A stretch of DNA of 25,643 bases, from contig JBHHYQ010000001.1 of the NCBI GenBank assembly GCA_046757595.1, positions 1-25,643 on the forward strand. The letters run 5' to 3'. Under the pieces are notes generated by a model. It had not been told where the DNA came from and ran no database searches. It saw only the letters and a program-made list of their open reading frames with translations. Positions 5,393 to 8,002 of the stretch are shown one piece after another. This DNA is from Candidatus Omnitrophota bacterium (GTDB taxonomy: Bacteria > Omnitrophota > Gorgyraeia > Ghiorseimicrobiales > Ghiorseimicrobiaceae). A program made the position numbers and the translations under genes. Position 1 is the stretch's first letter; every line of letters starts with the position of its first letter.

Positions 5393-6130
5393 CTATTCCA
5401 TATCCTCGTCGGGAATATCAAAATTAGCATGCACCTTTTGCACATCATCGTGGTCTTCCAAGGCCTCCACCAGGGCAAGGACCGTCTTCGCATCCTGCCC
5501 GGCAACCTTAACTAAAGAGCTGGGAACCATAGTTACCTCCGCAGACTGCAAGGATATCTTGTTGTCCGACAAGGCCTGCTTTACCGGCTCCAACCCCGCG
5601 GGGGTGGTGGTAATCTCGTAGCTGTCGCCCTCTACCTTCATATCCTCTGCCCCGGCATTCAGCACGATATCCATCAGCTTATCCTCACCGACCTGAGATT
5701 TATCCACCAGGATATATCCCTTCTTGCTAAACATCCAATTTACCGATCCCGCGCCGGCAAGATTGCCGTTTTTCTTGGAGAAGATATTCCGGATCTCGGC
5801 CGAGGCGCGGTTTTTATTATCGGTCACCGCCTCAACCATTATCGCAACCCCTCCCGGGCCATAACCTTCGTATGTCAACTCTTCATAAACAACCCCCGGC
5901 AACTCCCCCGTGCCTTTTTTTATTGCCCGGTCGATATTATCCCAGGGCATATTTGACCCCTTGGCCTTCTGCACCGCCGTGCGCAGGGAAGGGTTAGTCT
6001 CGAGGTTGCCTCCGCCGTTTCTCGCGCATATCGTTATCTCTTTGATTAACTTAGTAAACAACGCCCCTCTCTTGGCGTCTGTCGCCGCTTTCTTATGTTT
6101 AATACTTGCCCACTTCGAGTGCCCTGACAT
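5393..6130 (-). CDS. yebC: YebC/PmpR family DNA-binding regulator
   Basis: MSGHSKWASIKHKK, YEGYGPGGVA, LEDHDDVQKVHAN; GGAGG RBS. Confidence 0.97.
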   Translation of the reverse strand: MSGHSKWASIKHKKAATDAKRGALFTKLIKEITICARNGGGNLETNPSLRTAVQKAKGSNMPWDNIDRAIKKGTGELPGVVYEELTYEGYGPGGVAIMVEAVTDNKNRASAEIRNIFSKKNGNLAGAGSVNWMFSKKGYILVDKSQVGEDKLMDIVLNAGAEDMKVEGDSYEITTTPAGLEPVKQALSDNKISLQSAEVTMVPSSLVKVAGQDAKTVLALVEALEDHDDVQKVHANFDIPDEDME

Positions 6131-6160
6131 ATCAACCTCCTGTAATTATGCGGTAAGGAA

Positions 6161-6203
6161 AATAATGTTGCAGAAGCGACATTGTCACTTTTGTAACATT
6201 ATT
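6161..6203. other. Long inverted repeat abutting the rnpB 3' end (terminator or processing hairpin candidate)
   Basis: AATAATGTTGCAGAAGCGACA-T-TGTCACTTTTGTAACATTATT, a 21-bp stem with 2 wobbles and 1 mismatch. Confidence 0.55.
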
Positions 6204-6713
6204 GCCCCAAGAAAGGTAAGCCGGGTTCTGTGGTTACTCTTGTCAAGTAACGGTGGTTATTCCTCTGGAGCCGAATATTACTATTCGGCTTCCGGCAGTC
6301 TACCCAAGGCTTCCTCCGCCTATCGACGGAAACGAGCCAGGCCGGCTCGCGCCTCAAACCGATAAGGCGTTGCCTCCTTTATGACATTGCTCCGCGCAGA
6401 GATTGCCTGTTTCACCTCCTCCGCAACAAAAACCTGTTCCGCCGATTAGGCAAAAAAGGCTTTTTGCGCCGCGGATTACTCATCTCTGTGGCTCTCCCGT
6501 CCAATCGGCTATCTTGCCCAATCGAGACAGGCCCATTACCCGGAAAATGTTTCCCCGACAACGGGATCCGCTTGAGACAAAAACGTCCTTGTCCCAAGGG
6601 TGGGGATTACCCACTACGTCGCCTTTTGGAGCCCGGACTTTCCTCTTTCGGCCATAGTGGACAAATAAAAATGCCCTTATTTACCGAAAGCAACCACCTT
6701 CCTTTCTTGAGGC
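6204..6713 (-). ncRNA. rnpB: RNase P RNA (bacterial type A-like, atypical)
   Basis: Minus strand carries GAGGAAAGTCCGGGCTCC, GCCACAGAG, GGTGAAAC, GGAGCAA and ACAGAACCCGGCTTAC. P1 GCCTCAAGAAAGG/CCTTTCTTGGGGC, P2 GGTGGTT/AACCACC, P3 TTTCGGT/GCCGAAA, P18 GCCGAATA-GTAA-TATTCGGC, P19 GTTACTT...GAGTAAC. Confidence 0.97.
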
Positions 6714-7117
6714 GTTATCTCTCCCGCGCCCTGTTTAGCCAGTTTATCCGCGTCTTTATTGTGTTCGCGTCGTATATGCCTCATCTCCACAACGTCAAAT
6801 CCCTGCATCAAACGCACAGCCTGGACATAATACGGCCTCAACCCGCTATTTTTTACTCGATAGACTCCTTTAATCTGCCGATAGAGCAACTCGCTGTCCG
6901 TATTGATTGCAATCCGTGGCAGCTTTAGGCGCAAAGCCTCTTCCAGCGCGCATATCAGGGCGGAGTATTCGGCAACATTGTTGGTCGCCCGGCCGATACG
7001 CCGGGATATCTTCATAACTTCTCGTCCTGACGATGTTAATACCACGCCGATACCGCTAGGGCCGGGATTACCCGATGATGCCCCGTCGATAAAGGCCTCA
7101 GCTGTCGGACTGTTCAT
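6677..7117 (-). CDS. rnhA: Ribonuclease HI family protein
   Basis: FIDGASSGNPGPSGIG, TNNVAEYSAL, TDSELL, HIRREHNKDADKLA. Start moved to the ATG at 7117 (GAGGA RBS). Confidence 0.93.
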   Translation of the reverse strand: MNSPTAEAFIDGASSGNPGPSGIGVVLTSSGREVMKISRRIGRATNNVAEYSALICALEEALRLKLPRIAINTDSELLYRQIKGVYRVKNSGLRPYYVQAVRLMQGFDVVEMRHIRREHNKDADKLAKQGAGEITPQERKVVAFGK

Positions 7118-7823
7118 ACAATATCCTCGCGCACATATCGCAGACAATCAACCTCTCGTGCATCCTTATCTCGTTGACGACCTGATGGGGCACATTCATA
7201 AAACACCCCTGACAGGCATTATTTACGACCCTAACCAGGGCCAGGCCATGTTTATTCTCCAATATCCGTTCATAACGACCAAGAATATCCGGGGCGACAT
7301 GAGAAATTATTTGGCCCCGCTTGCCCCGCAAAACATCCAGCTTATCCCGCAAGACTTTTTCATCTTTTCTCAAACTGTCTTTTTCCCCGGCCAGCTTCTT
7401 TTCTTCTTCGGCCAGGAAAGATTTTGCCTTATCAGTCTCCTCTTTCAATTTATCTAAATCCATAAGAATGCTTAAGATTTTATCCTCGATGCAAGATTTA
7501 TCCGCATTGGATCCTTCTATTTCTTTAAGCATTGCCGTATATTCTTTATTGGTCTTGATCTGAGAAAGCTGTTTTTGTAATTTATCGATATTGCCTTCTT
7601 TGCTCTTTAGTTCTATTTCACTTTCATTCTTTTGCAGCAATAATTCTTTGGCCTTTTCTTCCAGCTGCCGCAACATAACCTTTTTTGCCGCAAACTCATC
7701 ATCTTTATTTTTTATCTCTTTCGGAATAGCATCCAATTTATGCTTTATATCGTATCTTAAGCTATCCAACTCCTGGAGATTGATCAAATAACCAACCTGC
7801 TCTTTTATGAATACCTGCGACAT
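7098..7823 (-). CDS. Coiled-coil protein with C-terminal C4 zinc ribbon (CT398/DUF164-like)
   Basis: LQELDS...KTNKEYTAMLKEIE coiled coil, then NACQGCFM...VCDMCARILY. This family is commonly found upstream of rnhA-rnpB. Confidence 0.9.
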   Translation of the reverse strand: MSQVFIKEQVGYLINLQELDSLRYDIKHKLDAIPKEIKNKDDEFAAKKVMLRQLEEKAKELLLQKNESEIELKSKEGNIDKLQKQLSQIKTNKEYTAMLKEIEGSNADKSCIEDKILSILMDLDKLKEETDKAKSFLAEEEKKLAGEKDSLRKDEKVLRDKLDVLRGKRGQIISHVAPDILGRYERILENKHGLALVRVVNNACQGCFMNVPHQVVNEIRMHERLIVCDMCARILYEQSDS

Positions 7824-8002
7824 ATTCTTTATTGAATTACCACAAAATCGAATCGTCTTCCAGGCGCTACCAATAGAAGACAAAAAGAAGCAGGGCTCTG
7901 TTAAAAATTAGCCACCTACAAAATTTATCTTCTTTATTCCCGACAAGTTACGCGCAAAAAAGGTTGGCTCTGATTTTTTTCTTGTTTTCCCTTATCTTTT
8001 CT

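What the first reader, a model, noticed from the sequence alone, without database searches (positions are those of the whole stretch)
6204..6713. Atypical ~510 nt RNase P RNA: P13/P14 deleted, P9 expanded to ~100 nt, extra helices near P16
Seen in sequence: GGTGAAAC runs directly into AGGCAATCTC (6387-6416), leaving no room for the P13/P14 helices of type A RNAs; this junction looks archaeal or type B-like. Yet P6, P15-P17, a GNRA-capped P18 and P19 are type A. Between P8 (GTGGG-TAATC-CCCAC) and GGAGAGCCACAG lies a ~100 nt multi-hairpin insert (~6500-6599) instead of a short P9. P12 is ~60 nt, and extra stems (CGCCTTA...TGAGGCG, TCCGTC...GGCGGA) flank P16/17. Established: L13-P12 and L14-P8 contacts stabilise the type A specificity domain. 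Inference: a distinct structural subclass in which the enlarged P9/P12 replaces the lost tertiary contacts.
Basis: partly seen in the sequence, partly recalled or inferred. Interest (0 to 1): 0.65.

Follow-up and report, generated by a model that had tools for sequence, protein, structure and literature searches.

The report
Omnitrophota RNase P RNA, type-C-like
This is the real gene for the RNA enzyme that trims tRNA precursors in an uncultured hydrothermal-vent bacterium; its odd shape (two standard helices missing, two extra hairpins elsewhere) is normal for its whole phylum and resembles a rare form so far known from Chloroflexi.

Summary
A minus-strand bacterial RNase P RNA lies at 6204-6713 (RF00010, 136 bits, E 5e-42). 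It has no nucleotides at P13/P14 and about 100 extra nt between P8 and P11. It also has a long P3, a long P12 and extra hairpins inside P16.

The interpretation needs two corrections.

First, the insert is not an "expanded P9". It is a 31-nt P9, then the conserved CGGAU strand of P10, then two hairpins (X, Y) inserted in J10/11. That is the site of P10.1 in type B and type C RNAs. X and Y covary strongly across relatives: 93% of cells paired against 61% in shuffles, and 15 of 15 pairs show double changes.

Second, the RNA is not an outlier. The organism is Omnitrophota. At least 126 of 154 sampled Omnitrophota RNase P RNAs lack P13/P14, and about 34 carry the X-Y pair. Many relatives lack P13/P14 yet have a short P9 and P12 and no X-Y, so compensation is not obligatory.

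The closest known form is the type C RNA of Thermomicrobium. I found no paper on Omnitrophota RNase P.

Side finding: RnpA is undetectable in this family and in about a third of the class, and is cleanly missing from rpmH-yidD.

Verdict: new variant of a known kind, moderate interest.

The parts
6204..6713 (-). RNase P RNA gene (rnpB), 510 nt including the full P1
   Evidence: RF00010 match at 6204-6709, 136.2 bits, E 4.8e-42. P1 was extended by direct reading of the sequence.
6701..6713 (-). P1 5' strand (GCCUCAAGAAAGG). It lies inside the last codons of rnhA.
   Evidence: 13 bp complementarity with 6204-6216.
6204..6216 (-). P1 3' strand (CCUUUCUUGGGGC)
6644..6691 (-). P3, extended to 48 nt with a distal stem
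   Evidence: CM alignment shows a 22-nt insert. Fold -18.3 kcal/mol, z -4.7.
6630..6645 (-). CR-I / P4 5' strand, GAGGAAAGUCCGGGCU
   Evidence: Matches the model consensus.
6621..6624 (-). P6 5' strand (AGGC) in J5/7
   Evidence: Complementary to GCCU in the loop of hairpin b (6339-6342). The same AGGC/GCCU pair occurs in G001 and G003. It is invariant, so there is no covariation test.
6600..6614 (-). P8 (GUGGG-UAAUC-CCCAC)
   Evidence: CM alignment.
6569..6599 (-). P9, a 12-13 bp hairpin with an ACGU loop (not GNRA)
   Evidence: Fold z -3.3. It is second in the P8 / P9 / GGA order shared by all relatives. Four strain-variant changes keep the pairing or fall in the loop.
6566..6570 (-). CGGAU, the conserved P10 5' strand
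   Evidence: RGGA follows P9 in all 31 four-hairpin relatives. In short relatives the CM aligns it to model P10.
6532..6565 (-). Hairpin X (34 nt), the first of two helices inserted in J10/11 (P10.1 position)
   Evidence: Model R1 match at 6481-6570, E 1.8e-5. Helix 1: 7 of 7 pairs have changes on both sides, 93.3% of cells paired. Fold z -2.8. Strain variants U152C, U172C and C167U keep the pairing.
6496..6531 (-). Hairpin Y (36 nt), the second inserted helix, abutting P11
   Evidence: Helix 2: 8 of 8 pairs have changes on both sides, 92.9% paired. Fold z -3.9. Strain variants keep the helix, with the bulge shifted by one position.
6476..6495 (-). P11 5' strand AGAGCC plus J11/12 (CR-II, ACAGAGAUGAGUAA)
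   Evidence: CM alignment. Invariant in alignment A2.
6420..6475 (-). P12, 56 nt, three stacked stems
   Evidence: Fold -27.5 kcal/mol, z -4.1. A strain variant changes A249-U279 to G-C.
6400..6417 (-). Junction GGUGAAAC|AGGCAAUCUC: J12/13 (CR-III) runs directly into the P11/P10 3' strand, with no P13/P14
   Evidence: 43 model positions aligned to 0 nt. The same 8-9 nt spacing occurs in 126 of 154 Omnitrophota RNAs.
6306..6376 (-). P16 enclosing three hairpins: a (6350-6369), b (6333-6349), c (6313-6332). Hairpin b is P17 and its loop forms P6. Hairpin c has a GAUA loop.
   Evidence: Fold -36.5 kcal/mol, z -3.2. The homologous P17 (NNAACC-AGCCU-GGUUNN) is aligned in G001 and G003. The CM labelled hairpin c as P17, which I consider a misassignment.
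6297..6305 (-). L15 3' side GGGUAG (the GGU that binds tRNA 3'-CCA) and P15 3' strand
   Evidence: Matches the model consensus CGGGUAgg.
6269..6290 (-). P18, 9 bp, GUAA tetraloop
   Evidence: Fold z -5.2. A strain variant changes A420-U441 to G-C and the loop GUAA to GCGA, which is still GNRA.
6233..6251 (-). P19 hairpin
   Evidence: Fold z -4.3.
6217..6232 (-). CR-V / P4 3' strand, CACAGAACCCGGCUUA
   Evidence: CM alignment.
6677..7147 (-). rnhA (RNase HI-like). It lies directly upstream on the same strand and overlaps the rnpB 5' end by 37 nt.
   Evidence: Pfam RVT_3 / RNase_H. Synteny with rnpB in 29 of 31 class genomes.

Best explanation
The locus encodes the functional catalytic RNA of RNase P of an Omnitrophota bacterium.

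Catalytic domain. It is ordinary type A: P1-P5, the P4 pseudoknot, P15 with the GGU that binds tRNA 3'-CCA, P16/P17/P6, a GNRA-capped P18 and P19. It should cleave pre-tRNA 5' leaders like other bacterial RNase P RNAs.

Specificity domain. It keeps the tRNA-elbow-binding core: P10/P11 with the AA bulge, J11/12, P12 and J12/13. It has lost P13/P14. It carries two covarying hairpins (X, Y) inserted on the 5' strand between P10 and P11, the site of P10.1 in type B and type C RNAs. The overall layout is therefore type-C-like.

Shown: identity, missing P13/P14, position and base pairing of X and Y, phylum-wide distribution.

Inferred: X and Y brace the P10-P12 stack in place of P13/P14. They appear to be an optional stabiliser rather than a required replacement. 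The form arose inside Omnitrophota independently of Chloroflexi and Firmicutes, because some Omnitrophota lineages still have classical P13/P14.
For: Identity:
- RF00010 match, 136 bits, full length, all conserved regions matched.
- It is the only RNase P RNA hit in the assembly.
- No HARP over cut-off in the family.

Taxon: the best YebC matches are Candidatus Omnitrophota MAGs, up to 82% identity.

P13/P14:
- 0 nt in the window RNA.
- The same in all four family relatives and most of the class.
- 126 of 154 phylum RNAs have GUGAAA to GGCAA spaced 8-9 nt. 18 were called as keeping P13/P14 and 10 were unclear.
- On inspection G084, which had been called as keeping P13/P14, also lacks it. So do four of the unclear ones, G056, G094, G097 and G150.

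X and Y:
- The order P8 / P9 / RGGA / X / Y / AGAGCC was seen in 31 RNAs by folding. Three more near-variants bring the total to about 34, spread over 20 families and at least 2 classes.
- Model R1 and alignment A4: 93.1% of cells paired against 61.5% in shuffles (0 of 500 shuffles as high). 15 of 15 pairs have changes on both sides. Covariation score 0.679 against 0.198, and 0.09-0.15 for slid partners.
- The bases just 5' of AGAGCC vary freely while the 3' strand GGCAAUCUCU is invariant. P10 must therefore be formed by the conserved GGA, not by the strand the Rfam CM chose.

Selection in this lineage. Variant contigs from two runs of a second vent sample differ by substitutions that keep the helices:
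- two double compensatory changes, in P12 and P18;
- eight single G-U to G-C or A-U changes in P9, X and Y;
- L18 stays GNRA.

Literature. Type C is described as lacking P13 and P14, containing P10.1 and keeping P6, P16 and P17 (PMC2858038 Table 3; PMC7191817).
Against: - No RNA-level evidence: there is no transcript, no mapped ends and no activity assay.
- No type C sequence could be fetched, so the comparison with Thermomicrobium rests on published descriptions only.
- Type C and type B have one P10.1 helix, whereas here there are two.
- According to PMC2858038 type C lacks P19, which this RNA has.
- X and Y are absent from two of the four family relatives. Their loops are not conserved: 7 of 31 and 3 of 31 are GNRA. 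A specific tertiary contact is therefore not supported.
- Alignment A4 was fitted to the model and contains five antisense matches of the same palindromic hairpins and one match elsewhere in a locus, which inflates the pair counts somewhat.
- The strain variants come from low-depth contigs (2.9-7.1x) of one sample.
Confidence: 0.82

Rival explanations
1. X, Y and the other inserts are neutral peripheral expansions. They fold because hairpins are the easiest way to tolerate extra RNA, and they contribute nothing to RNase P activity or stability.
For: - There is presence/absence polymorphism even within family f1: G002 and G003 lack X-Y.
- Lengths range from 13 to 39 nt per hairpin.
- Loops are unconserved.
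- 93 P13/P14-less relatives do without X-Y.
Against: - The insertion site and the two-helix format are the same in 20 families of at least 2 classes.
- Pairing is maintained by compensatory change in 15 of 15 pairs.
- Pairing is also maintained in strain-level variants.
- No RNA that keeps P13/P14 carries X-Y. By script this was 1 of 18, and that one (G084) was a miscall on inspection, so 0 of 17, against about 33 of 126 without P13/P14. These lineages are not phylogenetically independent.
Confidence: 0.25
2. X and Y are P13 and P14 themselves, moved to the other strand of the P10/P11 region. On this reading the RNA is a rearranged type A rather than a P10.1-type RNA.
For: - There are two adjacent hairpins of P13/P14-like size.
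- X-Y occurs only where P13/P14 are missing.
- In several relatives X and Y resemble each other (UCCGCC...GGCGGA, CCCGCC...GGCGGG).
Against: - The Rfam CM gives no alignment of X-Y to the P13/P14 positions.
- Most P13/P14-less relatives have neither element, so loss and gain are separable events.
- The mutual similarity of X and Y points to a local tandem duplication rather than a transposition.
- No conserved L13- or L14-like loop was found.
Confidence: 0.08
3. The gene is a decaying or non-essential RNase P RNA, and tRNA 5' processing is done by another enzyme.
For: - The score is low for the family: 136 bits against 280-311 bits for classical relatives.
- RnpA is not detectable in the family.
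Against: - All conserved regions and the P4 strands are intact.
- The score deficit is explained by the missing P13/P14 and the inserts.
- No HARP was found.
- Variants preserve the structure.
- The same architecture is kept across the phylum.
Confidence: 0.04

Closest known systems
Type C bacterial RNase P RNA (Thermomicrobium roseum / Chloroflexi; Haas and Brown, as summarised in PMC2858038 and PMC7191817)
   Same: Both lack P13 and P14, have extra helical material at the P10.1 position, and keep type A P6, P16, P17 and P18. Both carry additional helices in the P15-P17 region.
   Different: - This RNA has two tandem hairpins instead of one P10.1.
- P19 is present here, whereas PMC2858038 Table 3 lists it as absent in type C.
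- The phylum is different, and P13/P14-bearing relatives exist in that phylum, so the origin is presumably independent.
- The identity of the extra P16-region hairpins with P15.1/P15.2 could not be tested, because no type C sequence was available here.
Type B RNase P RNA specificity domain (Bacillus subtilis, RF00011)
   Same: P13/P14 are absent and a helix is inserted between P10 and P11.
   Different: The catalytic domain here is type A: P6/P16/P17 are present, there is no room for P5.1, and the best Rfam family is RF00010.
Reduced RNase P RNAs of Candidate Phyla Radiation bacteria (Lui, Nielsen, Arkin 2021, PMC8172020)
   Same: They are type A-derived RNAs from uncultured small-genome bacteria. 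[quoted passage not shown] They also have large helix extensions and low Rfam scores.
   Different: This RNA keeps P16/P17/P6 and the GGU motif. That paper describes no tandem J10/11 hairpins. The phylum is different.
Archaeal type A RNase P RNA (RF00373)
   Same: J12/13 runs straight into P11, with no P13/P14.
   Different: Archaeal RNAs lack P18 and depend on 4-5 proteins. This RNA has a GNRA-capped P18 and bacterial conserved-region sequences, and it scores best as bacterial class A.
Classical type A RNase P RNA (E. coli M1, Thermotoga maritima)
   Same: All catalytic-domain helices, the conserved regions CR-I to CR-V, L15 GGU, and L18 GNRA.
   Different: There is no P13/P14, so no L13-P12 or L14-P8 contact. 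L9 is not GNRA. It has extra X, Y and P16 hairpins, and a long P3 and P12.

Membership tests
Bacterial RNase P RNA class A (RF00010) | Covariance-model score above the curated gathering score | tested here: met
   136.2 bits against a cut-off of 100, full model 1-367.
Bacterial RNase P RNA class A (RF00010) | P4 strands and conserved regions CR-I and CR-V | tested here: met
   GAGGAAAGUCCGGGCU and ACAGAACCCGGCUUA match the consensus.
Bacterial RNase P RNA class A (RF00010) | P15 internal loop with GGU, plus P16/P17 with the P6 pseudoknot | tested here: met
   GGGUAG is retained. P16 and a P17 homologous to G001/G003 are present. The loop GCCU is complementary to J5/7 AGGC. P6 itself is invariant, so it is supported by complementarity only.
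Bacterial RNase P RNA class A (RF00010) | P13 and P14 helices between J12/13 and P11 | tested here: not met
   43 model positions aligned to 0 nt. The spacing is 8 nt.
Bacterial RNase P RNA class A (RF00010) | GNRA-capped P18 | tested here: met
   GUAA loop on a 9-bp stem. A natural variant has GCGA.
Type C RNase P RNA (Chloroflexi) | Absence of P13/P14 with retention of P6, P16 and P17 | tested here: met
   Definition taken from PMC2858038 and PMC7191817.
Type C RNase P RNA (Chloroflexi) | P10.1 helix between P10 and P11 | tested here: inconclusive
   Helical insert at that junction, supported by covariation. However, it is two hairpins, and no type C sequence could be aligned.
Type C RNase P RNA (Chloroflexi) | P15.1/P15.2 element; P19 absent | tested here: inconclusive
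   Extra hairpins a and c lie within P16, but their equivalence to P15.1/P15.2 is unknown. A P19 hairpin is present, unlike type C in PMC2858038 Table 3.
Type C RNase P RNA (Chloroflexi) | Common descent with the Chloroflexi RNAs | not testable with these tools
   No Chloroflexi RNase P sequence was reachable. Classical P13/P14 forms within Omnitrophota (17 genomes) argue for an independent origin.
Type B RNase P RNA (RF00011) | P5.1 and P15.1 present; P6/P16/P17 absent | tested here: not met
   J5/7 is 9 nt with no helix. P16/P17/P6 are present. The best clan member is RF00010.
Bacterial RNase P holoenzyme (RNA + RnpA) | An rnpA gene (PF00825) in the genome | tested here: not met
   No hit in G000 (78% complete) or in the four family relatives (89-93% complete), with either Pfam or a clade profile. 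rpmH is directly followed by yidD in G001-G004. For G000 itself the rpmH locus is not assembled.

The most novel reading that the evidence does not exclude
Omnitrophota hold a natural series of RNase P RNAs, from classical type A, through a bare P13/P14-less form, to a form with tandem P10.1-like hairpins. This would be a third independent invention of the type B/C specificity-domain solution.

In addition, one sub-clade that includes this genome's family has lost the universal protein subunit RnpA while keeping the ribozyme. Its RNase P would then work RNA-alone or with an unrelated, unidentified protein.
Probability: 0.2. Interest if true: 0.8.

Novelty: new variant of a known kind. Interest (0 to 1): 0.5.

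Why it matters
RNase P RNA is a textbook case of how a ribozyme changes its peripheral scaffolding while keeping its core. Until now the switch from P13/P14 to P10.1 was known from Firmicutes (type B) and Chloroflexi (type C).

Within one phylum, Omnitrophota shows three states: P13/P14 present, both elements absent, and P13/P14 absent with a double helix at the P10.1 site. The order of loss and gain, and whether the new helices compensate at all, can therefore be tested with natural sequence pairs. For example, G003 (351 nt) can be compared with this 510-nt RNA from the same family.

There is also a practical point. The Rfam model mis-assigns the insert to P9 and one hairpin to P17, and it scores these RNAs close to its threshold. 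Some Omnitrophota families give no hit at all.

If the missing RnpA is real, it would be the first bacterial lineage with an RNA-based RNase P lacking its canonical protein.

Tried and rejected
- Expression. The look-up of sequencing runs listed no RNA holder, so nothing can be said about transcripts or ends. The DNA holders all belong to one study of hydrothermal-vent metagenomes, one of them probably the source sample.
- Promoters and terminators. One promoter-like site, within chance expectation, lies downstream of rnpB. There is no terminator after the gene. The two 'terminators' on the minus strand lie inside P9 and P12.
- RnpA hit in G000 (C58, E 6e-4). It lies antisense inside guaA and contains a TGA, so it is spurious.
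- RnpA remnants between rpmH and yidD. None was found with hmmsearch --max.
- Protein comparison on the G002 intergenic stretch failed because of stop codons.
- HARP (PF08745). Only sub-threshold 16-17 bit matches inside ~338-aa proteins.
- MAFFT alignment of the whole P8-P11 region (A1) misaligned several rows and was not used. A narrower seed (A2) plus the CM was used instead.
- Haas and Brown 1998 could not be opened. Type C is therefore cited second-hand.
- Literature searches for Omnitrophota plus RNase P returned nothing relevant. A search for natural rnpA-less bacteria also returned nothing.
- GNRA docking loops on X and Y as the mechanism: rejected as a general rule.
- Order-level RnpA survey: the order contains only the five genomes of family f1.

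Full report
**What is there.** Rfam's class A RNase P model matches the minus strand at 6204-6709 over its full length (136.2 bits, gathering score 100, E 4.8e-42). Reading the sequence, P1 extends to 13 bp (6701-6713 with 6204-6216).

The alignment shows intact P4 strands (GAGGAAAGUCCGGGCU, ACAGAACCCGGCUUA). It also shows the J11/12 and J12/13 modules, the GGC-AA-UC strand of P11, J5/15, the L15 GGGUA motif and a GUAA-capped P18.

The 43 model positions of P13/P14 have no residue, so GGUGAAAC is followed at once by AGGCAAUCUC (6400-6417). Inserts are reported as follows:
- P3 loop, +22 nt
- 'P9', 96 nt against 13 in the model
- P12, +34 nt
- the P16-P17 region, +35 nt

Each of these elements folds much better than its shuffles, with z from -2.8 to -5.2.

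**Whose gene.** The flanking YebC protein finds Candidatus Omnitrophota MAGs as its best relatives, up to 82% identity. This agrees with two earlier notes on this window. The assembly is 1.17 Mb and 78% complete. It comes from hydrothermal-vent metagenomes.

**Not an outlier.** The same model finds an RNase P RNA in 37 of 41 related genomes and in 136 of 151 genomes drawn from the phylum.

The printed alignments show the 43 P13/P14 positions collapsed to 0-1 nt in all four genomes of the family and in four other families. The ninth RNA shown, G040, was aligned to those positions with many non-canonical pairs.

I extracted all 154 RNAs and measured the distance from GUGAAA to GGCAA:
- 126 have 8-9 nt.
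- 18 have 46 nt or more, meaning P13/P14 are kept.
- 10 were unclear.

On inspection G084, which the script had called as keeping P13/P14, also has the direct junction. So do four of the unclear ones, G056, G094, G097 and G150.

By the script's count, 40 of the 51 families include RNAs without P13/P14 and 12 include RNAs that keep them; with G084 corrected these are eleven families: f6, f13, f20, f28, f30, f46, f49-f52 and f54. The lack of P13/P14 is therefore the rule in Omnitrophota.

**The insert is not an expanded P9.** I folded the stretch between P8 and P11 in every RNA. There are two ways of being long.

- Some RNAs have one very long P9, followed by GGAUCAGAGCC.
- Thirty-one RNAs, including this one, have four hairpins in a row: P8, P9, then a conserved R-GGA-U, then two further hairpins that end directly at AGAGCC.

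In short relatives such as G002 and G003, the Rfam model aligns this same GGA to the 5' strand of P10.

In the long forms the bases just before AGAGCC differ freely between genomes (...GAAGU...AAAUG...AAUCG...CAAGU). The 3' strand GGCAAUCUCU does not change. Those variable bases therefore cannot form P10. They are the 3' strand of the second extra hairpin.

In the window the parts are:
- P9: 6569-6599
- CGGAU: 6566-6570
- hairpin X: 6532-6565
- hairpin Y: 6496-6531

The extra helices sit on the 5' strand between P10 and P11. This is the place of P10.1 in type B and type C RNAs.

**Test of X and Y.** I built a covariance model of GGAU-X-Y-AGAGCCACAG from 11 relatives (A2, R1). It matched the window at 6481-6570 (E 1.8e-5) and 33 other RNase P RNAs over its full length.

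On the resulting alignment:
- 93.1% of cells form standard pairs, against 61.5% in shuffles (0 of 500 as high).
- All 15 pairs show changes on both sides.
- The covariation score is 0.679 against 0.198 in shuffles.
- With the partners slid by 1-3 columns the score is 0.09-0.15.

There are two caveats. The alignment was fitted to the model. It also contains five antisense matches of these near-palindromic hairpins and one match elsewhere in a locus.

**Independent support from the same lineage.** Contigs from two runs of a second vent sample carry a variant of this gene. I placed its substitutions on the fold by hand.

- In P9, A120G, C134U and U135C each keep a pair.
- In X, U152C, U172C and C167U do the same.
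- In Y, G212A and U190C keep pairs. C184A with G209A moves the bulge by one base and leaves the helix continuous.
- In P12, A249-U279 becomes G-C.
- In P18, A420-U441 becomes G-C, and the loop GUAA becomes GCGA, which is still GNRA.

The remaining changes in these helices fall in loops, apart from U253A, which opens a terminal pair of P12, and indels near the tip of X. These are low-depth contigs from one sample, so the support is modest. It does concern this very RNA.

**Distribution and the compensation idea.** Counting three near-variants, about 34 RNAs in 20 families and at least two classes have X-Y. After correction of the miscalled G084, none of the 17 RNAs that keep P13/P14 has X-Y. 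That fits a link between the two features, although the lineages are not independent.

On the other side, about 93 P13/P14-less RNAs have no X-Y. Many of them also have a short P9 and a short P12:
- G003, from the same family, is 351 nt.
- G021 is 328 nt.
- G106 is 319 nt.

The loops of X and Y are GNRA in only 7 and 3 of 31 cases. In this RNA, L9, LX and LY are not GNRA.

At most, X-Y is an optional brace.

**The P16 region.** P16 (6306-6376) encloses three hairpins.

- The middle hairpin (6333-6349, CGAGCC-GGCCU-GGCUCG) corresponds to the P17 that the CM aligns in G001 and G003 (..AACC-AGCCU-GGUU..). Its loop GCCU is complementary to AGGC in J5/7 (6621-6624), which is the P6 pseudoknot.
- The CM instead labelled the third hairpin, which has a GAUA loop, as P17. 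I read that as a misassignment.
A hairpin 5' of P17 is also present in several relatives.

**Comparison with known classes.** Published summaries define type C RNAs of Thermomicrobium and Chloroflexi as lacking P13 and P14, containing P10.1, and keeping P6, P16 and P17 (PMC2858038). PMC7191817 adds P15.2 to that definition. That is the layout found here, so type C is the closest known class.

The differences are:
- two hairpins instead of one;
- a P19 hairpin, listed as absent in type C;
- another phylum, one that still contains classical forms, which points to convergence.

I could not fetch a type C sequence, so membership by alignment is untested.

Loss of P13/P14 in uncultured bacteria has also been reported for CPR and called 'not unusual' (PMC8172020). 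A 2026 accretion study treats P10.1 as a late, lineage-specific stabilising expansion (PMC12974513). I found no paper on RNase P in Omnitrophota.

**How it most likely works.** It is the cell's RNase P ribozyme.
- The tRNA elbow is read by the retained P10/P11, J11/12, P12, J12/13 core.
- The 3'-CCA is read by L15.
- Cleavage happens at the P4 core.
- L18 still has the means to dock on P8.
- X-Y probably packs along the P10-P12 stack, as P10.1 does in type B. This last step is inference.

**Side finding.** No rnpA is detectable in this genome or in its four family relatives, with Pfam PF00825 or with a profile built from 19 RnpA proteins of the class. The single weak hit in G000 is antisense to guaA.

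In all, 15 of 41 class genomes lack it. Most of these are 93-98% complete.

In 11 of 11 such genomes where the locus is assembled, rpmH is followed directly by yidD and yidC with no remnant. RnpA-positive relatives have rpmH-rnpA-yidD-yidC. HARP is not present either.

Nine of the nine RnpA-negative genomes with flanks have yebC right after rnpB, and none of the 22 RnpA-positive ones do. The RnpA-negative genomes are therefore probably one clade.

Either RnpA has diverged beyond recognition there or it is gone. I could not decide between these.

**Verdict.** The feature is real. It is correctly recognised as RNase P RNA without P13/P14. Its insert was wrongly parsed. It is typical of its phylum rather than atypical. 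It is a new variant of a known kind (type-C-like), of moderate interest, with one open and potentially more surprising side question about the missing protein subunit.

Noticed in passing
Whole genomes G000-G004, G006, G009, G011, G013, G016, G020, G029, G030, G033, G037, G039; loci L121-L124 and L262-L268: RnpA (PF00825, and a clade-specific profile) is not detectable in 15 of 41 genomes of the class, although most have rnpB. In 11 of 11 assembled loci rpmH is followed directly by yidD-yidC, with no rnpA and no remnant. No HARP was found in family f1.
   Followed up: partly
window 6130-7883 (minus strand) and loci L001-L030, L037: The gene order CT398-like zinc-ribbon protein, rnhA, rnpB is conserved in 29 of 31 class genomes. 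In the window the rnpB P1-P3 5' strands overlap the last 37 nt of rnhA. No convincing promoter of its own was found, which suggests co-transcription and processing.
   Followed up: partly
loci L004, L005, L024, L025, L027-L030, L037: yebC lies directly downstream of rnpB in 9 of 9 RnpA-negative genomes with flanks, and in none of the 22 RnpA-positive ones. The two traits mark the same lineage. A functional link is not implied.
   Followed up: no
G008 (L014) and G151 (L190), family f5: These are very small RNase P RNAs (291 and 302 nt). In G008 the usual ACAGA / GUGAAA modules around P12 were not found, and P12 looks like a short plain hairpin. This may be a further reduced specificity domain.
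   Followed up: no
G020, G030, G105, G141, G154, G163 and several other-class genomes: Genomes 94-95% complete give no RF00010 hit at all, including both sampled members of each of families f27 and f42. Their RNase P RNAs may be too divergent for the Rfam model.
   Followed up: no
window 6150-6760, runs X2/X3: A second strain or species with about 9% divergence across this gene coexists in another vent sample. Short conserved pieces (6159-6203 and 6599-6645) are shared with many other organisms' contigs at high depth.
   Followed up: partly
relatives G017, G040, G121, G160, G168 and others: In many relatives hairpins X and Y have nearly the same stem sequence (UCCGCC...GGCGGA, then CCCGCC...GGCGGG). 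This suggests that the pair arose by tandem duplication of one hairpin.
   Followed up: no
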